From positions 3,360,001 to 3,424,000 of the forward strand of contig JASGJH010000001.1 of NCBI GenBank assembly GCA_047601445.1: a stretch of DNA of 64,000 nucleotides, read 5' to 3'. The notes under the pieces were generated by a model that saw only the letters and a list, made by a program, of their open reading frames with translations, was not told the origin of the DNA and made no database searches. Origin of the DNA: Myxococcales bacterium. Its GTDB lineage: Bacteria; Myxococcota_A; Polyangia; Polyangiales; DASUME01. Within the stretch, counting starts at the first letter, position 1. The number at the start of each line of letters is the position of its first letter. Below, in pieces: positions 14,486 through 59,340 of the stretch. A program made the translations under genes and the position numbers.

Positions 14486-17400
14486 TCAGTTGCGCAGGAG
14501 CCGCGAAGCGTGGTCGCTCAGGAGCACCACGTTGTCGGGTGTTTCCGCTTCCTCGGCCGGGGCTGGTTTCTTGTTCGGGTCGAGGCGCTCGCGCACGGCC
14601 TGCACGAGCTCGGAGGTCTTGAGCACCGCGGTGTCGACCGCCGGCGAGAGCGCGGTGGCAAAGGCCGAGGTGGTGAGACCGGTGGTCCAGGCGATGGGAC
14701 CGAGCGGCGTGCAGCCGAAGAGCTGGCTGAGGCCCGGCGTCTGGATGATGAGCCCGAGGGCCGCAAAGGATCCTAGGCTCGTCCAAAGCACCGAACGACT
14801 GTGACCGCCCTTGAGCAAGGTCTGCCCGAGCTGGGTGCCGACGAGCCCCACCAGCCCCACGGTGCGCGCGCGTGCTTGCCCGCCGCTCAAGCGCGCCAGG
14901 GTCCAAGCACTGCCAGCGCCGAAGGAGGTGGTGATGGCGCGAGCGATGATCTCGCGATCGAGGGGCGCACCAAGCGATGCGTCCGGGCCTGCGTCCCGCA
15001 GCGTGCTCAAGTCGCGCACGGAAGGCGGACGCAGCGCGATGGCCATCGAGGGCGCGATGTCGGTGAGGAAGTTGACGAGCAGAAGCTGGCGCGGGTTGAG
15101 CGGAGCGTGTCCGAGCAGCGCGCCGATGCTCACGGTGAAGGCGATTTCCCCGAGGTTGCCGCCCACCAGGATGGACACCGCATCGCGCACGGAGTTCCAC
15201 ATGGCGCGGCCTTCGACCACCGCGTCCACCAGCGAGTCGATGCGCGCGTCCGCCAGCACCACGTCGGCGGCCGCTCGCGCTGCTTCGGTGGAGCCCGCGC
15301 CCACCGCGATGCCGGCATCGGCCACACGCATGGCGGGCGCATCGTTGGCGCCGTCGCCGACCATGCCGACCACGTGCCCGGTGCGCTGCAGTGCCCGCAC
15401 CACGCGGACCTTTTGCGCAGGCGTGACGCGCGCGAAGATGGCCGTCTTGCCCACGGCGCGCTCGAGCTGCGCCTCGGTCATGTGGGCGATCTGAGCGCCG
15501 TGCAGCATGCCCAAGTGGTTCACCAAGCCCACCTCGCGACCGATGCTGTGCGCGGTGTTGGGATGGTCGCCGGTGACCATCACCACGCGCACGCCAGCCT
15601 TCGCGAGACCGCTCACGGCGCCCTGTGCACTGGCACGCACGGGGTCACGGAACGCCACCAACCCGCGCACGATGAGTTCGCGCGGATCTTCGATGAGGGC
15701 GCGGGCCGGAGCTTGCTCGAGCTCGGCGTCCCCCACGGCGCGCTCGGCCACCGCAATGACGCGCAGGCCATCCGAGGTGAGCCGCTCGAGTTGTTGCTGG
15801 TAGGCGCCCTTGCCGCGCGAAATGGGCAAAAGGTCCCCTGACAACGCCACCGCGCTCGCGCGCGCCAGCAGCTGCTCTGGGGCCCCCTTGACGTAGATGC
15901 GTGCGCCGTCGGGTCCGCGTCCGAGCACGGCCTCGAAGCCGCGACCGGACTCGAAGGCGTGTTCCGCGAGGCGCACGAAGCCTTGCTCGAAATCACTCGC
16001 GAGCCTGCTGCGTGCCGCACGTACGATTTCGGCGTCCATCGGATCGCCGGACAGGCCTCGATCGTTGGCGACCGCGAGCGCGCCCATGCGCAACACGTCG
16101 AGGCGGGCCCCCGAAAGCTGCGCGATGCCCTCCAGCCGCTCGCCGTCGTGTACGCCGCTGAGCTCGATGCGGCCTTCGGTGAGCGTGCCCGTCTTGTCCA
16201 GGCACAGCACGTCCACGCGGCCCAATGCCTCGATGGCGCGCGGGTTCTTCACCAGCGCGCCGCGCCGCGACAGACGCTCGGCGGCCGCCAGCTGACTCAC
16301 GGTCGCCAGCACCGGCAAGCCCTCGGGTACGGCTGCGACTGCCAACCCCACGCCCGTGCTCACGAGATCATCCACGCGACGCCCACGCAGCAGGCCCGTG
16401 CCCACCAGCGCGGCGCCCGCGGTCATGGCCACGGGTCCAGTCAGACGCATGAGCGCGCGCAGACGCGCCTCGACTCCGCCACGCGCCTCGTCCGGCGTGA
16501 CCAGCGTGCCGCGGCGCATGATGGTGTCGTCGCCCGTGGCCACCACCACCGCGGTAGCGCGACCGGCTGCCACCGTGGTGCCAGCCCAGAGCATGGAGCT
16601 GGTGTCGGCCACGCTCTCTGCGAACGAGGGCGCCGCGCTCTTGAGCACCGGCAATGACTCGCCGGTGAGCGCCGACGCGTCGACCTCCAGCGAGTGCGCC
16701 TCGAGGATGCGGCAGTCCGCGGGCACCAGAATCGCCCTGATGAAAGAGCACCAGATCACCGCGCCGTAGCTCGCTCGCCAGACATACGCGCACGCGACCG
16801 CCGCGCCGCACGTGGACACGGGTCTCGGCTTGCTGCACCAGGCTGCTGATGGCGCGCTCCGTCTTGAAGCGCTGGTAGCCACCGATCAACGCGTTGAGCC
16901 CGCCTACGCCCGCCACGATGCCCGCGTCGGCCTTGGACCCCACCACTGCCGAGATGCCGGCGCCCATCGCCAGAAGCGGCGAGAGGGGGCTCGCGAGCTC
17001 CTTCTGTACGGCGCGGCCGAGCTCCATCCAGGCCGAGAAGTCGCGCACGCGGTCGCGGGTGCGCACCACCTTGGGTTCGGGCAATCCCTCGTCGCTGCTG
17101 CCGAGGCGAGCCAGGACGCCGCGGGCTTCGAGCGCGTGCCAGGGTGTGGGGTCCACCGGCTTGCGGGTGGAGCCGTCGACGTGCGCGGTGCGACGCACGG
17201 CGTTCAGCATGGCCGCCAGGCTCGCCAGGTTCACCACGAGCAACACGCGACGGGCTGCTAGTGGCGTGCGCCCACCAGCCGAGGCCAGTGTGCCGACGGC
17301 GGCCGCTCCCATCGCCAGGCGCACACTCTGCCGCGAGACACCGCGCGCCACATTGCAAGCCTCGATGACGGTGGCCAATACCCCCGGATCGTCGGGGCAC

Positions 17401-19019
17401 AGCAGGTGCGCTCCCCAGGGCGTCTGGCGCGTTCGATCGCACAGTGCCACGCCCACGTCCGCCGAGCCGTAGCCCGCCGAAGGCCCGCGTCCCACGAAGC
17501 AAACGGTGCGGCCCTCGCTCTGCAGGCGGCGGATGCCATCCACGAGGCCTCGCTGCAGCCCGATGACGTCGTCCGGATGCAGCCCCTCGGCCACACTAAG
17601 GTCGTCGCTCGCCAACACCACCTGCATGCCGAGCTTGCGCGCCGCGGAGATGGCTTCGCCCACGCCAGCTTCGGGCGCAATTTGCACTTCCACCAAGCCC
17701 ACTACGCGGTCGTGCTGGGTCAGCGCCAGGATCAGCGCGCCACGCTGGGCACGCTCGGCCATCTCCACTTCGAGCTCGGCGTCGTCGAACTCCGCCAGCA
17801 AACGGGCAGGACCGAGGGTATACGCCTCACCGCGTTGCACACGCAGTGGACGGTCCGCCGCGAAGAGCTTGCGCGCTTCCGCCAAGGCCTGGGCCCGCGA
17901 CAGTCCGCGCAAGGCGAACACGTCGCCCACGAAGAACTTTTGACGCATCACCAAGTCTGCCGTGATCACCAGGCAATCGACCCGATCGAGGCGCCGCAAC
18001 GCCGCGGGCGAGAGCACCAACATGTGATGACGAGCGAACACGCGCCCGAGCTCCGCCGTGAAGAGCTCACGGCCCAGGCGCGCCGGCATCGGGAGCGCCG
18101 CGAAGCCGGCCGCGATGGCGCGCGAGGGACTGCGTGTGGTGAGCGCGCTGAGCCCGAACGTGCCGAGCGCGATCATCCAGGCTCGATCGGTGTAGCGCTC
18201 GAGCTCGCCCTTGGGAATCTCGCAGGGCCGCTGCTCGGGCAGCGTCGTCGTGGATACCACGCCATCATGGGCCGTCAGCGCTTCCGCCCAGCGCTGCCAC
18301 AGCGCGTTACGCTCGCGCAGCTCGCGCAAGCTCACCAGCTTTTCGCTCAGATCGACCAGCGAGCTCAGCGGCCGCTGCGAAAGGCCCTGGGCGCCCGCCA
18401 TGGCGATGTGCAGCAAGAAGTCCGCGCGCTGGCGTCCCAGGCGTTCGTCGAGCGGACGCCGCAGCCGCTCAATCTGAGAGATCGCGAACAGGAGTCCGTA
18501 CAAGTTGGTGCCCAGGCGCCGCGGCACGAAAGGGACCAGCCGGAAAGACAGGCCCGCCATCAGCGACAACGCATCGGCCACCGCGGCGACGCTGAGCTCG
18601 CGATCGAGCTGCGAATCATCCGGCAGCGCCCGCTCCAGGAGTGCCCGCTCCGCCGCCGCCCGCAGACGCGCGGCCGAGCGATCGTCCGGACTGGGCTCGC
18701 CCACCACCTGGGAAGCGCGACTCGCCGCCAGGTTCTGCTCCACCAGTTGGACCCACTGAGACAGGCGCTCGGCCGACCAAACGTCACCGTGGAAGCGCAA
18801 GCCGATTCGCCGCGTGAACGGGTTGAGGACAGCGCTCACCGGGCCGTCGCCCTCATCCGCCGCCAGGGCCTCCTGCACGATGCGCTCGAATGCGGGCTGA
18901 TCTGCTGCCGCGACGCCGCGATATTCCACGTGGGCCACGCTACCCACGACACTCACGGCCCGCTCTCGCTCGCCGAGGAACAATTGCCGCATTTTCGCCG
19001 CGCGTTGGAACAGGTTCAT
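14486..19019 (-). CDS. Very large cation-transporting P-type ATPase (~1510 aa), mycobacterial CtpH/CtpI-like; apparent +1 frameshift at ~16730
   Basis: LTGES, PEGLP, DKTGT, KGAPE, TGDH, GDGAND. Removing one base restores GDLVPAD. N-terminal half is a degenerate ATPase-like copy. Confidence 0.85.
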
Positions 19020-19216
19020 CGCAGAACCCGCGCCCGGCTCGACCGCATTTCCCCAGCCATGACTACAGCTTTGGCACGAACAGATCGCCTCGCCAACACG
19101 GATTTGCCCTCGCTCTCCCTTGATCCGCGAGAGTACGAAAGTACAACAGCGCCCCGTTGACTTTTGTGGCGTCGCAGCGCGCAAATCCGCGCCCCGGCGA
19201 AGATAGGTAGGAGAGC

Positions 19217-22143: not shown

Positions 22144-22882
22144 TCAACGCGAGCCCAGCAGTACCCCACGCTGGAGCGCCAAGGTGACCCCGGTTGCGAG
22201 CTCCTCGAGCAATGCTTCGTCGAAAACTTTCCCCAATGAATACGCAGACATGCGTACTAGAATCCGCCAGCGACGCCGCGTTGTCGCGACGGGCACATCG
22301 CAGGACTTCGGTGAACAGCGGGTCGGCCGCGTACCAGCGGATGTCGTCGATCTGGGGCGGTCGATAGACCAGCAGGCTGCAGGGCTCCGTGCGGCACGAC
22401 GTGTCCTCGAGTTCGTGCACCCGATGCGACAACGCGAGCTGCTCGAGCGCCGCGTTGAACACGGGGATACCCGCGAAGTCGAACTCCTTGATGCCCGGGG
22501 GCGGCTCCGCCTTGCGGTAGGCCACTCGCCACTTGGCTTCCTCGAAGCGCAGGAGGTCGGCGGCGTAGACCGGACTGTCCGAGAGCAGCTCGGTATCGTC
22601 CACGGCGAACGTTCCGAAGGCGGCGATCACCTCGCGAATGAGCGGACTACGCGGCGGTTGCGCGGCCAAGAAGCGCATGAAGCTGCGCTCGCAGGCCTCG
22701 GTTCCCAGCAGCTCGAAGCTCTTGCGGAAGGCTTGCTTGGCCATCCCGAGGAAGCGGGTCCGAATCATCTGGCGATACATCACGAAGCGCCCGCGATCCT
22801 CGAAGCCCTCGAAGTCTCGCTCGTCGGCCTCGGGCGCGAAGCTGAGCTTCACGAGGGCGCGCTGGTACTCGGCCAGGTTCAC
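22144..22882 (-). CDS. MNIO partner / peptide-modification chaperone (DUF2063, HvfC/BufC-like); apparent +1 frameshift at ~22261
   Basis: Overlaps the DUF692 stop (GTGA). LAEYQRAL..YR..F...PPRSP..F...DLLRFE.A pattern. The corrected tail reads ADLVRM...DEALLEELA...LQRGVLLGSR*. Confidence 0.75.
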
Positions 22883-23751
22883 ACGGCCACCTTGGGAAGC
22901 ACGGACGCCTCTGCCGCTTGGAGCGCGCGCTGATAGATCGCGTCGAGGCGCGTGACCTCGGCGAGCAACTCCGAGAGCGCGGGGAAGTTGTCGTCGCGCT
23001 CGAGCAGGACGGGCAGGCGTCGTCCCAGCTTGCCCATGGTGTACTCGAACAACGCGAAGACCTCCTCACACACGGGCTCCGCGTGGGTATCGATGCGAAG
23101 GCCGTCCGGGCGCACCAGGTGCCCTGCCACGTGCAGCTGCACCACGCGCTCCAGCGGGAGTCCATCGATGAAAGCGCGCGGATCGAAACCGTGGTTTTGG
23201 CTGTTCACGAACACGTTGTTCACGTCGAGCAAGAGCTTGGCGTCCGAGCGCTCGAGGACCTCCACCAGGTGCTCGAGCTCGCTCATGCTGCCGCCGGGTG
23301 CATGGGCGTAATAGCTGATGTGTTCGAGGGCGATGGGCACGCCGAGTGCGTCCTGAGCTTGGTGCACGCGGTCGACCACCACATCCACGCATTCGCGGTT
23401 GAAGGGCAACGGCAAGAGGTCGTGAGCGAACACGCCGTCGACGCCCGCGAAGCACAGATGATCGGAGTGCCAGGGAACCTCGAGCTCCGCGAGTAGTCCG
23501 CGCAGCTCACGCAGATCAGCCTGCTCGAAAGGAGCCACGGAACCGAAGGCCATGGTGAGCCCGTGGGTCAGGAGCGGGAAGCGTTCGCGCGCCGTGCCCA
23601 ACATGGTCTCGTAACGTCCCCCGCGCTGGAGGTAGTTCTCGGGATGGATCTCGAGCCAGCGTACGGGCGTGTGCGGGGCCTCGAAGAGCTCCCTAGCCAG
23701 CGCATGTCGCAAGCCGAGCCCGATACCCTCTGCCTTGGTCCCGTGCGCCAC
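22879..23751 (-). CDS. Multinuclear non-heme iron oxidative enzyme (MNIO, DUF692/UPF0276; BufB/HvfB-like)
   Basis: GIGLGLR, EIHPENY, HG, SDHL, DLLPLP, LLDVNN, HVAGH, IDTH, LLERD. Confidence 0.95.
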   Translation of the reverse strand: MAHGTKAEGIGLGLRHALARELFEAPHTPVRWLEIHPENYLQRGGRYETMLGTARERFPLLTHGLTMAFGSVAPFEQADLRELRGLLAELEVPWHSDHLCFAGVDGVFAHDLLPLPFNRECVDVVVDRVHQAQDALGVPIALEHISYYAHAPGGSMSELEHLVEVLERSDAKLLLDVNNVFVNSQNHGFDPRAFIDGLPLERVVQLHVAGHLVRPDGLRIDTHAEPVCEEVFALFEYTMGKLGRRLPVLLERDDNFPALSELLAEVTRLDAIYQRALQAAEASVLPKVAV

Positions 23752-23770
23752 TCGTCTGCCCCTTTCTACT

Positions 23771-23826
23771 GCTCGCTTCGCCCGAGGGCGCGCTTCCTCG
23801 GCTCACGCCCGGGGGCGCGCTTCGAC
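23771..23826 (+). repeat. Dispersed repeat family A (GCTCGCGTCGCCCGAGGGCGCGCTTCG), two degenerate copies
   Basis: gctcgcttcgcccgagggcgcgcttc and gctcacgcccgggggcgcgcttcgac. Confidence 0.75.
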
Positions 23827-23946
23827 CAGTCCGAAAACTAACGCCAAAATTGCAAAAGCGCCGCGACGAACCCGCCACGGCGCCCTCTGCCTACACGAAC
23901 CTAGGTCGTGCTCGTCCGAGCAGCTCCCTGAGGTTCGCTCACCCGA

Positions 23947-24201
23947 TCACTTGGACGCGCCGCAGCTGCCACCGCCGCAGGACGACTCGCCGCCACCCTC
24001 GGCCGGAGCTGCGCCCTCGGCCGGAGCCGTGCCCTCGGCCGGAGCGGCCGCACCACCACAGGATTGCTCGGCACCACTCGCGGCCTCGGCGGCCTCACCA
24101 GCGGCGGGCTCGGCAGCCTTCTTGGCACAGCCACCGACCAGGCTCAGTCCCAGGGTCGCCGCTGCCATCGTCAGAACCTGTGCACGCAACTTGGAATCCA
24201 T
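23947..24201 (-). CDS. Putative MNIO RiPP precursor; small lipoprotein with three S-C-G motifs
   Basis: ggagagg RBS; signal with lipobox LVGG-C25; EQSCGG and ESSCGGGSCG; APAEG x3; directly upstream of DUF692. Confidence 0.85.
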   Translation of the reverse strand: MDSKLRAQVLTMAAATLGLSLVGGCAKKAAEPAAGEAAEAASGAEQSCGGAAAPAEGTAPAEGAAPAEGGGESSCGGGSCGASK

Positions 24202-24263
24202 GATGTTTTCCTCTCCTGTGGACGGCTCGTTCGGACTGAACGGAGCCGTCTTGGTGTCGTGAC

Positions 24264-24290
24264 TACGCGTCGAAGGCGGGCCGAGTTACA
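24264..24290 (-). promoter_or_regulatory. Putative ECF sigma promoter (TGTAAC-N17-CGTA) upstream of the RiPP precursor
   Basis: Minus strand tgtaac-tcggcccgccttcgacg-cgta resembles the SigF/ECF16 consensus GTAACC-N16-CGAA. Confidence 0.55.
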
Positions 24291-24467
24291 AACAATCGAT
24301 TGCGGAACTCAGAAATCGAGCGCACGCGCTCGCAACGTCCCCAACGGTGCGCCGCACGATAGCAAACAGGTTTTTGGATGGAAACAAAGAAAACTCAGGT
24401 GCGGGCTAGCCCTGCCCGGGGTACCTTCCGGTGCTCGAGCTTGCGTATCCAAAGGACATATTTCTTC

Positions 24468-24572
24468 GCTCGCGCGCCCGAGGGCGCGCTTCGACCGAAC
24501 GAGTTCGTTGGGCGTGTTCTCGAGCAGCCTCAGCCACTTCTCTGCTCGCGTCGCCCGAGGGCGCGCTTCGAC
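24468..24572 (+). repeat. Repeat family A, two copies (24468-24495 and 24541-24572)
   Basis: cgcccgagggcgcgcttcgac core in both copies. Confidence 0.8.
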
Positions 24573-24580
24573 TTGAAACG

Positions 24581-25414
24581 ATGAAACGTCCTGCCGCCGT
24601 ACCCAGCGATAAATCCCCCGTCGAGAGGTTGATCGGGCTCTGCATGTGGGCTCCAGGCGTGACCTGGTTGTCGAGCATGATGAGCACCATGATGCTCGTG
24701 CAGCGCTTCGTGCCCTCCGATCGCATCGAGTGGCTCACGCGCACGTACACGCGCGGCCAGGTCTTGCTCACGGGCTCCCGGCTCCACTACCACGTGCATC
24801 CGGCGGTGGATCCCAAACAGGTCTACATGTTCGCGCAGAACCACGTGAACATGCTCGACCACTGCACTTGCTACAACGGCACGCCGCACTTCAAGCAAGG
24901 CATCGAACTGGCCGCGCACTTCGACGTGCCGTTCTACGGCTGGTTCATGCGTCAGCGCGGCACCATCCCGGTCTATCGCGATGCCAAGGACGGCGTGCGC
25001 AAGCTCATCGAGGGAGTGAAGGCGGAGACCGAGCGCGGACACTCCATCCTCGTGTTCCCCGAGGGCACCCGCACGCGCAGCGGTCGCGTGGGGAAGTTCA
25101 ATAGCGGCGTGTTCCGCGTGGCGCACTCGCTGGGCTTGCCCATCGTGCCCACCGCCGTCACCGGGATGTTCGAGGTGATGCGCACGGGCGAGCCGTTCAT
25201 CAATCCGGGCCTCGACGTGAACGTCTACTTCGACGAGCCCATCCCGACGCGTGGGGTCCCCGAATCCGAGCTACCTTCCATCATCGAGCGCACCCAGGCC
25301 GCGGTGACCAAGCGTGTCGATGCGTACTATGCCGCGCGCGGTGGCTATCCCGAGTTGATCCCCACCGAAGACGCACCCGAGCCCGAAAAGCCTCAAACCT
25401 CGCGAGCATCATGA
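24581..25414 (+). CDS. Lysophospholipid acyltransferase (PlsC family)
   Basis: NHVNMLD (HxxxxD) and FPEGTRT motifs. The upstream ORF extension runs through repeats, so ATG 24581 was chosen. Confidence 0.9.
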   Translation: MKRPAAVPSDKSPVERLIGLCMWAPGVTWLSSMMSTMMLVQRFVPSDRIEWLTRTYTRGQVLLTGSRLHYHVHPAVDPKQVYMFAQNHVNMLDHCTCYNGTPHFKQGIELAAHFDVPFYGWFMRQRGTIPVYRDAKDGVRKLIEGVKAETERGHSILVFPEGTRTRSGRVGKFNSGVFRVAHSLGLPIVPTAVTGMFEVMRTGEPFINPGLDVNVYFDEPIPTRGVPESELPSIIERTQAAVTKRVDAYYAARGGYPELIPTEDAPEPEKPQTSRAS

Positions 25415-27187
25415 CCACGGTTCGCAAGACGCGTCCCCGCAAAACTTCCCCCGCCACCACCAAGCTCAGCGGCGCCAAACGCACCAAAAAGGCGCGCAGC
25501 AAGCAGAGCTCCGAGAACAAGACCCTCGGGCTGCGCAACAAGGGCCCGCGCGAGCTCGACTCTGGACACGCGCGACGCCTCTTGCGCGCCATGGAGCAGG
25601 AGCTCACGCGCCAGATCCGCGGGCTGCGTCAGCCTGGCGAGCCGCCGCCGTTCTTCCTCTCGTATTTGCTGCACGCCAAGGAAGGCTTGAGCGTGTGGGG
25701 CCGCTACGGTTCCGTGTTCCGCTCCGAGCCGCAGCGCGACACCGATCTCTACGCCGAAGTGCGCGTGGGCTCGCATCGCCTGGACAACACCATCGACGGC
25801 GGCATCACCTCCGACCCTTCGCAGCGACAGTCGCTCAACTGGGTCGAGGGCCCCGAGGATCTCGATCCCGAGGTACTGCGCTACGCGCTCTGGAAGCTGA
25901 CCCAGCACAAGTACGACGAGGCGCTGCAGGAGTACTACGAGAAGAAGAAGATCCTCGTGGAGCAGCAACTGCCCATGGGTGGCAAGAGCTTCTCCAGTGA
26001 GCCGCAGCTCAAGCACTTCGACCAGGTGAAGCCGGTGGTGTTCCCCAAGGCACGCTGGGAGCGCTTCGTGCGCGAAGCCAGCGGGCTGTTTCGGGCCTAC
26101 CGCTACATGCTCGACCCTTACGTGCAGATCCGTGGGCTCAACAAGGTCCGCATCTTCGCCAACTCGGAGGGCACCCGCTTCATCTGCCAGGACACCTACT
26201 ACGAGATGTCGTTGCAGGCATGGCTGCTCGGGGACGACGGTGTGCACCTGGAGACCACGCGCACGTTCTACGGGCGTGATCCGGATTCGCTGCCGACGCT
26301 CAAGCAGGTGGCCAAGGCCGTCGACGAGATGGCGCGAGAGCTCAAGGATTCTCAAGCACAGCAAGCCGCTCGACCCCTACGCGGGCCCGGCGCTGCTGTC
26401 TGGGTTCGCCAGCGGTCTCATCTTCCACGAGGCCATCGGGCATCGTCTGGAAGGCGAGCGCATGGGCTCGCGCAGCGAAGGACACACCTTCGCCTCCAAG
26501 ATCGGCCAGCGCATCCTGCCGGTCGAAGTCGACATCGTAGACGACCCCACGCTCACCGAATTCGCCGGCAAGCCGTTGCACGGCGCCTACAGGGTCGACG
26601 ACGAGGGCGTGCGCGCGCAGCCCGCAGAGCTCGTGAAGGACGGTGTCCTCAAGAACTTCTTGATGAGCCGCCAGCTGGTGGAGGGCTTCAAGCAGTCCAA
26701 CGGCCACGGACGACACGAGCGCTTCCAGGATCCCATGGCGCGCATGGCAAACTTGATCGTGAGCGCGCGCGAGCCGAAGACCTGGGAGGAGCTGAAGCGC
26801 ATGCTGTGCGAGGAGACCCTGCGGCGCGGCCTGCCCTACGGCATCATCATCCGCGGCGTTTCCGCCGGCGAGACCCGCACCGACCAATACGACTTCCAGG
26901 CCTTCAAGGGCGTCCCTACCGCCGTCTACACGGTGGATCCCAAGACCGGCAAGGAGACCCGTGTGCGCGACGTGACCTTCATCGGCACGCCGCTCGCGGT
27001 GATTCAGCGCATCCTCGGCTTCGGCGATACGCCCGACGTGGACAACAGCTACTGCTACGCCGAGAGCGGCGCGGTCCCGGTGGCCACCGTGGCCCCGGCG
27101 ATGCTCGTGGGCGAGCTCGAGCTGCAGCGGGCGAGCACGCGTCGGTATCGTCCGGCCCGCCTGGCGATGCCACCCATGCGCCCCTGA
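25411..27187 (+). CDS. TldD/PmbA family metalloprotease; apparent +1 frameshift at ~26349
   Basis: FHEAIGHRLE (HExxxH), DDPT, DDEGV, SNGHGR, RMANL. Frames join as ELKDLKHSKP after removing one T. Confidence 0.88.
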
Positions 27188-27193
27188 GCGGGG

Positions 27194-27292
27194 GCTCGCG
27201 TCGCCCGAGGGAGCGCTTCGGCCGTTCTGCTCGCGTAGCCCGAGGGCGCGCTTCGGCCGTTCTGCTCGCGTCGCCCGAGGGCGCGCTTCGGC
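27194..27292 (+). repeat. Repeat family A, three tandem copies with 35-nt period
   Basis: Units start at 27194, 27229 and 27264; near-identical with no unique spacers. Confidence 0.9.
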
Positions 27293-27849: not shown

Positions 27850-28984
27850 ATGTACAGCGACTACGACACGATGCGCACCATGCTGCGGCTGGCCAACAGC
27901 CCGGCGACGTTTTCCCTGCGCCGCGCGCTGTTTGCCGACGGGCTGGTCTCGCTGGTGGCGAGCATCGGGGCCCTCAACCGGGTGGCGGAGCGCATCGATG
28001 AGCGGCTCTACCCCGAGTACCACCAGCAGCCGGTGGGCAAGCCCATCTACATCGTGGCGGCTCCCCGCTCGGGCACCACGTTTCTGCACCGGCTGATGTC
28101 GCGGGACCCCCAGTTCACCACCTTCAAGATGCTGGAGACCTTCTTCCCGACCATCACGGGTCAGAAGGTCATCGAGCGGGTGACGCGGGTGAATGGGCGC
28201 GTGGGGGGGGCCCTGAACCGCCTCACGGAGCTCATCGACAGCTCGTCCTTTGGGGCCTGGGAGGGCATCCACGACACCGGGCTGAACCAGGACGAGGAAG
28301 ACGAGGCCATCTGGGCCATGGCCTTCGCCACGCCGGCCATCTGGCTGGTGCTGCCCTACCCCGAGCGCTTCGCCCACCTACGCTTCATCGACAAGCTGCC
28401 GGAAGACAAGAAGCGGAAGCTCATCGCCTACTATCGCGGGGTGGTGCAGCGGCACCTCCACCTGCGCCCGGGCAAGACCCTGCTGGCCAAGAACGTGCTC
28501 TTGCCGGGCCGCTTCGAGATCGTGACCGGGGCCCTGCCCGACGCGCGCTTCGTGCACGTGCTGCGTCACCCCTACGAGGCCCTGCCCTCGATGCTGAGCC
28601 TGTTCACGGTGCCCTGGCGCTGGCATTCCCCGGAGGTGCGCCCGGACGGCCCCGAGGCGCGCGCTTTGACCGAACTCACCATCGACTACTACCGATTCCT
28701 ACACAGCCAGAGCCTCGAGAGTGAGCGCCAGCGCAAGCGGCAGTTCTTCAACGTGACCTACAACGACCTGCTGGCCGACCCGATGAAGACGGTCGAGCAG
28801 ATCTGACGATCGCTTCGAGCTGCCCTTCACGGACGCGCTCAAGCAGGACCTGGGTCGGGAGGTCGCCCAACAGCGGCGGTTCCGCAGCGACCACAAGTAC
28901 AGCCTCGCGCAGTTCGGGCTGACCAAGGACTACGTGTACGAGCAGCTCAAGGAGCTGTTCGAGCACTACGGCTTCTCGCGCTGA
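27850..28984 (+). CDS. Sulfotransferase (PAPS-dependent); apparent +1 frameshift at ~28805
   Basis: 5'-PSB PIYIVAAPRSGTTFLH; 3'-PB RHPYEALPS. Removing one G gives IYDRFELPF...HKYSLAQFGL...YGFSR*. Confidence 0.88.
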
Positions 28985-59305: not shown

Positions 59306-59340
59306 TCTGCTCGCGTCGCCCAAGGGCGCGCTTCGACTTG
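59306..59340 (+). repeat. Repeat family A copy
   Basis: tctgctcgcgtcgcccaagggcgcgcttcgacttg has one mismatch to 24541-24575. Confidence 0.85.

What the first reader, a model, noticed from the sequence alone, without database searches (positions are those of the whole stretch)
22144..24290. Candidate new MNIO (DUF692) RiPP system: precursor, oxidase and partner
Seen: three co-oriented genes encode an 84-aa exported Cys-motif peptide, a DUF692 enzyme with recognisable metal-ligand motifs, and an overlapping DUF2063-like partner. Known: MNIO plus partner pairs modify precursor Cys residues (methanobactin MbnBC, Haemophilus HvfBC, Caulobacter bufferin BufBC), giving copper-binding products. Inference: a myxobacterial metal-binding RiPP whose precursor matches neither the EGKCG repeats of HvfA nor the bufferin precursors as I recall them. 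No DoxX gene is adjacent.
Basis: partly seen in the sequence, partly recalled or inferred. Interest (0 to 1): 0.85.

Follow-up and report, generated by a model that had tools for sequence, protein, structure and literature searches.

The report
Myxobacterial lipid-anchored copper-peptide gene cluster
Three neighbouring genes of a myxobacterium encode a small peptide with a lipid-anchor signal, an iron oxidase and its partner, which likely turn the peptide's cysteines into copper-binding rings; this is a well-conserved myxobacterial branch of an already described kind of system, not a new kind.

Summary
The three genes are real: an 84-aa precursor, an MNIO (PF05114, best fold match 3BWW) and a DUF2063/PME1 partner (best match 3DEE) with a frameshift near 22260 that relatives lack, probably an assembly error. 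Its E-x-S-C-G motifs are a Lys-to-Ser form of the HvfA/oxazolin EGKCG repeat. Orthologues in the same MNIO clade carry true EGKCG repeats, and 6 of 22 tested pass NCBIfam's HvfA-family cut-off, although this peptide does not. All 9 same-genus genomes searched have the MNIO orthologue. An ECF-type promoter motif (32 of 45 loci) and a terminator-like hairpin after the precursor (31 of 48) are conserved. Best reading (0.75): a captophorin whose three core Cys become 5-thiooxazoles, lipidated like Neisseria lipo-NedABC, binding copper at the envelope. Chemistry, lipidation and copper function are inferred; no copper gene or DoxX is linked. Verdict: new member of a known kind. The scan noted the same type of cluster earlier in other genomes.

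The parts
24356..24393 (-). A/T-rich element ending in TG-C-TATCGT, a possible housekeeping (extended -10) promoter; conserved in same-genus loci
   Evidence: Seen by eye upstream of the precursor here and in L002, L003, L004 and L006; the sigma-70 consensus scan did not call it
24264..24289 (-). ECF-sigma-type promoter motif GTAAC-N17-CGTA, 88 nt before the precursor start
   Evidence: G[AT]AAC-N16/17-CG[TA]A upstream in 32 of 45 lipoprotein-type loci; 0 of 45 on the reverse strand; Markov control mean 0.39
23947..24201 (-). Precursor, 84 aa: signal peptide with lipobox LVGG-C25, acidic Ala/Glu/Gly/Pro linker, motifs EQSCG (C48) and tandem ESSCG-GGSCG (C75, C80)
   Evidence: (C25, E45, E72, C75, C80 invariant in 23 of 23)
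23844..23887 (-). GC-rich hairpin followed by a U-rich tract between precursor and MNIO; likely an internal terminator or attenuator that favours precursor mRNA
   Evidence: 31 of 48 loci, reverse strand 3 of 48, Markov mean 0.3; 10 of 14 pairs show two-sided changes in 16 hand-picked hairpins; not called by the terminator scan
23781..23824 (.). Two copies of a genome-wide short intergenic repeat (REP-like); not part of the conserved system
   Evidence: 36 exact copies and 70 copies with at most 1 mismatch in the genome; 0 in six relatives' loci
22879..23751 (-). MNIO (DUF692) maturase, 290 aa
   Evidence: PF05114 E 2.5e-92; HvfB model 280/360 bits and BufB model 274/310 bits, both under cut-off; model pLDDT 93.5, best fold match 3BWW E 3.3e-23; H63, H98, E143, D176, H207, D221, H223, E251, D253 invariant in 55 of 55
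22144..22882 (-). DUF2063/PME1 (HvfC/BufC-like) partner; the reading frame shifts near 22260 in this assembly
   Evidence: PF09836 over cut-off; frameshift against intact orthologues; family profile hits 3DEE at E 2.7e-18; intact orthologue from L003 folds like 3DEE, E 1.8e-6

Best explanation
The locus encodes a precursor with a lipobox, an MNIO and a DUF2063 partner, and it likely makes a lipid-anchored captophorin: a membrane-tethered peptide whose three core cysteines are predicted to become copper-binding 5-thiooxazoles. Steps: (1) Inferred: an ECF sigma factor, and perhaps a housekeeping promoter, drives transcription, and the internal hairpin gives more precursor than enzyme mRNA. (2) Inferred from characterised MNIO-PME1 pairs: the enzyme and partner form a heterodimer in the cytoplasm and oxidise Cys48, Cys75 and Cys80 by 4 electrons each (-4 Da each, about 305 nm absorbance). 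(3) Inferred from the lipobox and from lipo-NedABC: Sec export, diacylglycerol on Cys25 by Lgt, cleavage by LspA and N-acylation by Lnt; the three genes are shown in the genome. (4) Inferred: the 60-residue, acidic, probably unstructured product chelates excess Cu at the envelope and may be shed in vesicles. Shown here: gene anatomy, family assignments, conservation, kinship of the motif with EGKCG, and the two conserved non-coding elements.
For: The MNIO scores closest to the HvfB and BufB models, far above ApyH, ChrH and MbnB, and its best fold match is 3BWW. The partner matches 3DEE by profile and fold; PMC13097082 names 3BWW and 3DEE as an MNIO and a PME1 of this group and states that all characterised MNIO-PME1 clusters install 5-thiooxazole and generally bind Cu. 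D253 aligns with the ERDF Asp of 3BWW, the position I equate with the FonB catalytic base D249. [quoted passage not shown] The C-terminal tandem 5-mer matches the two-repeat minimal FonA substrate. EGKCG-bearing orthologues nest in the clade. The lipobox Cys is invariant in 23 of 23; lgt, lspA and lnt are present; a lipidated EGKCG peptide, NedA, is shown experimentally in PMC13056109. 22 of 30 loci found with the precursor profile have an MNIO directly downstream.
Against: There are no experimental data on this clade. This precursor hits no Pfam or NCBIfam precursor model, and the MNIO and partner fall below the HvfB, BufB and HvfC equivalog cut-offs. No DoxX and no copper ATPase, oxidase or efflux family was found among 80 neighbour proteins chosen from clusters of the 59 loci examined, so the copper role rests on family precedent alone. 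The FonB specificity positions Arg16 and Phe250 are replaced here by H16 and D254. Ser at position 3 was not among the FonBC variants in the text I read. The lipobox was called by my own rule, not SignalP. The ECF motif is patchy within the genus (present here and in L004 and L006, absent in L002, L003 and L012), and 19 of its 32 hits come from one close subclade. The partner frameshift could not be checked against reads.
Confidence: 0.75

Rival explanations
1. Same chemistry and lipid anchor, but the main job is thiol/oxidant or other-metal defence in an ECF stress regulon rather than copper buffering.
For: No copper genes among the neighbours tested. The same promoter motif lies upstream of msrP, thioredoxin, dsbD, yggX and yceI in this genome. 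YceI-like genes neighbour the cluster in one subclade of 7 loci. PMC13097082 names oxidative stress and gold among inducers of such clusters.
Against: The motif occurs 222 times in the genome. It is not conserved upstream of orthologous msrP (0 of 3, only 1 with informative upstream sequence), dsbD (0 of 5) or yggX (0 of 5), and is strict in only 1 of 4 thioredoxins. Characterised captophorins generally bind Cu.
Confidence: 0.12
2. The Ser-Cys motif and the changed active-site rim (H16, D254) direct a different modification, such as an oxazolone-thioamide or a ring that uses the Ser side chain.
For: Ser precedes Cys in 144 of 206 motifs; the FonB Arg16 and Phe250 positions differ across the clade; the clade is below all equivalog cut-offs.
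Against: Close orthologues with the same rim residues sit beside EGKCG or mixed EGSCG/EGKCG precursors. FonB F250D and R16A still make 5-thiooxazole. The oxazolone assignment for HvfA was revised to 5-thiooxazole in PMC13097082.
Confidence: 0.08
3. In this strain the cluster is crippled: the partner frameshift is real, removes the C-terminal helices and leaves an unmodified lipopeptide.
For: The frameshift is in the sequence, and no reads were available to check it.
Against: Three other genes within about 20 kb are also frameshifted against syntenic relatives (P-type ATPase near 16740, TldD near 26350-26480, sulfotransferase near 28803), as expected from indel errors in a long-read assembly. 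The sequence after the shift is still 54-66% identical to four orthologues. The MNIO's conserved residues are intact.
Confidence: 0.05

Closest known systems
Lipo-NedABC of Neisseria dentiae, a DAG-RiPP of the oxazolin/EGKCG type (PMC13056109; abstract and passages read)
   Same: Precursor with a lipoprotein signal and three Cys 5-mer motifs, MNIO, substrate-binding partner; predicted -12 Da core and triacylated N-terminal Cys.
   Different: Motifs here are E-x-S-C-G rather than EGKCG, in an acidic linker (8 D/E against 3 K/R in the core); the host is a Polyangiales-related myxobacterium; nothing is tested experimentally.
Captophorins of the 5-mer-repeat (Lys-Cys) group: fontiphorin FonABC, oxazolin HvfABC, gonophorin NgoABC (PMC13097082; parts 1, 3, 4 of 6 and supplement search)
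   Same: MNIO plus PME1/DUF2063 partner, tandem 5-mer Cys repeats with Glu at position 1 and a small residue after Cys, conserved catalytic Asp. The paper's Dataset S2 already lists a lipoprotein-like EKSCG precursor beside PME1 WP_269041315.1.
   Different: Ser replaces Lys; lipid anchor; no DoxX; the MNIO lacks the Arg16/Phe250 pair; MNIO and partner are below the HvfB and HvfC equivalog cut-offs.
Bufferins Buf1 (DUF2282) and Buf2 of Caulobacter vibrioides (PMC11626156 passages; PMC12452194 passages, one section, supplement search)
   Same: MNIO plus DUF2063 partner, Sec export after modification, ECF-sigma control; about 16% of Buf2 precursors are predicted lipoproteins.
   Different: No DUF2282 or BufA2 match and no Cys pattern for a structural disulfide; no adjacent sigma/anti-sigma or DoxX. 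The genome's bufferin-type MNIO is a separate gene only 36% identical.
'CxxxxC' precursor family (PMC12452194) and cluster X lipoprotein precursors (PMC13056109)
   Same: Signal peptide or lipobox and a CxxxxC spacing (C75 and C80 here).
   Different: That family is described with DoxX and, in 54% of clusters, a Lactamase_B_2 gene; neither is typical here. I could not see its alignment or member list, so an overlap is not excluded.

Membership tests
Captophorins (MNIO-PME1, 5-thiooxazole) | MNIO enzyme with an intact metal-binding set and catalytic Asp | tested here: met
   reading the invariant His/Glu/Asp residues as Fe ligands rests on recalled MbnB/TglH structures
Captophorins (MNIO-PME1, 5-thiooxazole) | Adjacent PME1 partner with a DUF2063 domain | tested here: met
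   Pfam over cut-off; 3DEE by profile and fold; frameshifted in this assembly
Captophorins (MNIO-PME1, 5-thiooxazole) | Cys-motif precursor conserved next to the MNIO | tested here: met
Captophorins (MNIO-PME1, 5-thiooxazole) | 5-thiooxazole product (-4 Da per Cys, about 305 nm) | not testable with these tools
   Needs expression, MS, UV and NMR
Captophorins (MNIO-PME1, 5-thiooxazole) | Copper binding | not testable with these tools
   No copper genes among 80 neighbour proteins; family precedent only
HvfA/oxazolin (Buf_EGKCG) precursors | This peptide passes the NCBIfam HvfA models (NF050137, NF050188) | tested here: not met
   No hit at E up to 10; so this peptide is not filed as HvfA in the strict sense
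HvfA/oxazolin (Buf_EGKCG) precursors | Orthologous precursors share the EGKCG repeat family | tested here: met
   2 of 16 and 4 of 6 hand-picked pass NF050137; L169 and L179 have EGKCG and nest in the clade; none passes the equivalog NF050188
HvfB/HvfC and BufB equivalogs | Scores above the curated cut-offs | tested here: not met
   280/360 and 274/310 bits for the MNIO; 50.6/142 for the partner and 45-95/142 for three intact orthologues
DAG-RiPPs | Lipoprotein signal peptide with a conserved lipobox Cys | tested here: met
   C25 invariant in 23 of 23; own motif rule, no SignalP; 48 of 63 precursors classed this way
DAG-RiPPs | Host has Lgt, LspA and Lnt | tested here: met
DAG-RiPPs | Product shown to be diacylglyceryl- and N-acylated | not testable with these tools
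   Needs lipoprotein extraction and MS
Bufferin Buf1/Buf2 | DUF2282 or BufA2 (6/12-Cys) precursor | tested here: not met
   No Pfam or NCBIfam match
CxxxxC / cluster X precursors | Match to the published profile or member list | not tested
   The profile is not in the libraries scanned and the supplement of PMC13056109 could not be read

The most novel reading that the evidence does not exclude
The Ser-Cys, polyanionic, lipid-anchored branch is a distinct captophorin subfamily, near-core in several Polyangiales families, with an altered MNIO specificity rim and its own ECF regulon. It makes a different ring or binds a different metal, and is displayed on, or shed from, the myxobacterial outer membrane.
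Probability: 0.12. Interest if true: 0.7.

Novelty: new member of a known kind. Interest (0 to 1): 0.38.

Why it matters
It extends lipid-anchored thiooxazole metallophores to uncultured Polyangiales, where the cluster is near-core in some families (17 of 18 genomes of one family, 9 of 9 in this genus). Standard models mostly miss the precursor: PMC12452194's table counts no Buf1, Buf2 or EGKCG precursor for Sandaracinus amylolyticus or Sorangium cellulosum despite their MNIO and DUF2063 genes. Natural EGSCG/EGKCG switches within one enzyme clade offer a ready test of MNIO substrate rules. The concept (captophorins, DAG-RiPPs) is already published, so the surprise for a specialist is modest.

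Tried and rejected
Sequencing runs: none was listed and no RNA holder was listed, so neither the frameshift nor expression could be checked. A redox regulon under the same promoter motif (msrP, dsbD, yggX, yceI, thioredoxin): not conserved in orthologues, except partly at thioredoxin; the yceI hits were distant homologues. The cognate sigma factor: the genome has 106 Sigma70_r2 matches, none adjacent, so none was assigned. The downstream TetR and hydrolase genes as parts of the system: TetR was matched in two relatives' loci only and neighbourhoods differ between subclades. A conserved ORF downstream in 23 loci is the antisense frame of rpoC. Consensus scans found no sigma-70 promoter and missed the internal hairpin. 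The ESM Atlas gave only unnamed Myxococcota clusters. A text search for EGSCG, EASCG, ESSCG, EKSCG or xSCG from 2023 on listed 20 of 37 papers, none on RiPPs; 'MNIO' plus 'Myxococc' listed 13 of 21, none with a title on this branch; 'captophorin' listed 3. No complex prediction was run, because the MNIO-PME1 pair is a textbook pair. Earlier scan notes by sequence and for this genome: none.

Full report
OBSERVATION. Three genes lie on the minus strand: a precursor (23947-24201, 84 aa), an MNIO (22879-23751, 290 aa) and a partner that starts at 22882 with a 4-nt overlap. The MNIO matches PF05114 at E 2.5e-92 and the partner matches DUF2063 over its cut-off. In NCBIfam the MNIO is nearest HvfB (280 of 360 bits) and BufB (274 of 310), far above ApyH, ChrH and MbnB; the partner scores 50.6 of 142 on HvfC; the precursor hits nothing. 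Orthologous partners align in one frame to about 22260 and in the next frame to the stop at 22146-22144. Three other genes within about 20 kb are also broken against syntenic relatives, so an assembly indel is the likely cause; no reads were listed to check it. DoxX genes exist in the genome but not in the window.

CONSERVATION. A scan of genome contigs gave 208 MNIO relatives, of which the best 80 were kept; the closest are Polyangiales/Myxococcales MAGs. My motif rule found an upstream precursor in 66 of 80; 6 of the 14 misses have under 260 nt upstream, and five related loci have a TANGO2-like gene or too little sequence there. All 9 same-genus genomes have an orthologue at 64-82% identity, with the precursor in the 8 that have upstream DNA, and an unbroken partner. 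A precursor profile (A1, 23 rows) found matches in 26 of 301 genomes of the phylum, own genome included: 17 of 18 in one family of the same order and 0 of 23 in another. 22 of the 30 loci returned have an MNIO directly downstream; most of the rest are stand-alone paralogues and one is a repeat artefact. A protein search gave 50 homologues, none with an informative name.

THE PRECURSOR. It has a basic N-terminus, a hydrophobic stretch and LVGG-C25; C25, E45, E72, C75 and C80 are invariant in 23 of 23 aligned sequences. By my rule (Cys at 15-34 after G, A or S; not SignalP) 48 of 63 precursors are lipoprotein-type, after dropping three with a wrong start or another family. The genome has lgt, lspA and lnt. 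In 45 such precursors with full upstream DNA, the 206 core Cys 5-mers have E at position 1 in 153, G or A at position 2 in 186, S at position 3 in 144, and G or S at position 5 in 174. The cores are acidic (median -0.17 charge per residue), whereas the 15 Sec-type precursors of more distant MNIOs are basic. This is the EGKCG 5-mer with Ser for Lys. L169 ends in EAKCGEGKCGEGKCG and L179 mixes EGSCG and EGKCG behind nearly the same signal peptide as their EGSCG relatives. Both MNIOs nest in one 71-tip clade with the window's enzyme (FastTree support 0.89; the tree holds no characterised reference enzyme). 2 of 16 and 4 of 6 orthologous precursors pass the cut-off of NF050137, the HvfA-family model (the six were chosen by me, three for their Lys motifs); none passes the equivalog NF050188, and the window's peptide hits neither.

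THE ENZYMES. The MNIO model (pLDDT 93.5) matches 3BWW best (E 3.3e-23), then TglH and MbnB. H63, H98, E143, D176, H207, D221, H223, E251 and D253 are invariant in 55 of 55; reading them as Fe ligands is recalled from MbnB/TglH. Through the 3BWW alignment I equate R15, H16, D253 and D254 with FonB R15, R16, D249 (catalytic base) and F250. The clade keeps R15 and the base but has Y/H/M and N/Q/D at the other two positions. The partner profile hits 3DEE at E 2.7e-18, and the intact L003 orthologue folds like 3DEE and TglI.

NON-CODING PARTS. G[AT]AAC-N16/17-CG[TA]A lies upstream of 32 of 45 lipoprotein-type precursors, against 0 of 45 on the reverse strand and 0.39 in Markov controls. Kin are not independent: 19 hits come from one subclade, and within the genus it is patchy. 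It also precedes two stand-alone paralogues of that subclade and two Buf2-type clusters. Its likeness to the Caulobacter SigF promoter is recalled; PMC3511200 holds the string GTAACC once (search listing only). A second, housekeeping-like element is shared by five same-genus loci, by eye; the consensus scan did not call it. A GC-rich hairpin with a U-rich tail follows the precursor in 31 of 48 loci (reverse 3, control 0.3), with two-sided changes in 10 of 14 pairs among 16 chosen hairpins. The whole spacer folds only modestly better than shuffles (z -1.8).

MECHANISM. Most likely (0.75) the MNIO-partner heterodimer converts Cys48, Cys75 and Cys80 to 5-thiooxazoles. The peptide is then exported by Sec, lipidated at Cys25, and binds excess copper at the envelope. 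PMC13097082 reports 5-thiooxazole for all characterised MNIO-PME1 clusters, a two-repeat minimal substrate, tolerance of Ala, Thr or Arg before Cys, and a need for a small residue after it. PMC11626156 shows that the MNIO and DUF2063 partner are required and DoxX is not. PMC13056109 shows a triacylated, -12 Da EGKCG peptide, NedA. Against this: nothing is tested for this clade, and no copper gene or DoxX family appears among 80 neighbour proteins drawn from clusters of 59 loci. A redox role (0.12) was suggested by the motif before msrP, thioredoxin, dsbD, yggX and yceI, but it did not hold in orthologues apart from a partial signal at thioredoxin. Different chemistry (0.08) and a truly broken partner (0.05) are less likely.

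COMPARISON AND NOVELTY. It works like lipo-NedABC and the 5-mer captophorins. It meets every captophorin and DAG-RiPP feature testable here and fails the strict HvfA, HvfB, HvfC and bufferin models. The captophorin supplement already lists a lipoprotein-like EKSCG precursor and has 68 EASCG and 922 EGSCG occurrences, of which I saw two rows each, all in EGKCG-type peptides. PMC12452194 counts no classified precursor for Sandaracinus amylolyticus or Sorangium cellulosum, but mentions hundreds of unclassified small ORFs and a CxxxxC family. The supplement of PMC13056109 (cluster X, Table S6) could not be read and may already list this branch. Paper searches found no study devoted to it. Papers seen: PMC12452194 (abstract, passages, Results part 2 of 4, supplement search), PMC11626156 (passages), PMC13056109 (abstract, passages), PMC13097082 (parts 1, 3, 4 of 6, supplement search); all others as listings only. 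Four earlier scan notes describe similar clusters in other genomes; I read them after forming this reading and they are not evidence.

VERDICT. A real, conserved, well-formed cluster; a new myxobacterial member of the captophorin/DAG-RiPP kind. Interest 0.38.

Noticed in passing
L081:5022-6386 (G000:C1 about 6108000-6109400): A second MNIO in the genome passes the BufB cut-off (319/310 bits). A lipoprotein-like ORF with a weak BufA2 match (E 6e-4, under cut-off) lies on the opposite strand, head to head with it.
   Followed up: partly
window 14486-19184, 25411-27187, 27850-28981: A P-type ATPase-like gene, tldD and a sulfotransferase are frameshifted against syntenic relatives, which points to frequent indel errors in this assembly.
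   Followed up: partly
window 23781-23824, 24477-24493, 24554-24570, 27239-27290, 59319-59335: A short REP-like repeat with 70 near-exact copies in the genome, absent from six relatives' loci.
   Followed up: partly
L184, L185, L176, L183: Stand-alone precursor paralogues with no MNIO downstream; L184 and L185 keep the promoter motif, suggesting modification in trans.
   Followed up: no
L054, L055, L067, L076: A subclade of these MNIOs has no adjacent precursor; a TANGO2-like gene lies directly upstream instead.
   Followed up: no
L129 (G000:C1:7854933) and L149, L151: A GTAAC-led motif upstream of thioredoxin is partly conserved in the genus (strict in 1 of 4 orthologues, loose in one more); msrP carries a strict copy in this genome only.
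   Followed up: yes
L059-L079 (for example L059, L063, L065, L069): A separate myxobacterial MNIO clade has basic, Sec-type (non-lipidated) EKSCG/AKSCG precursors, in several loci as two tandem genes.
   Followed up: no
L123: An MNIO is preceded by a lipoprotein-like ORF made of about a dozen DAGCA repeats, another precursor type.
   Followed up: no
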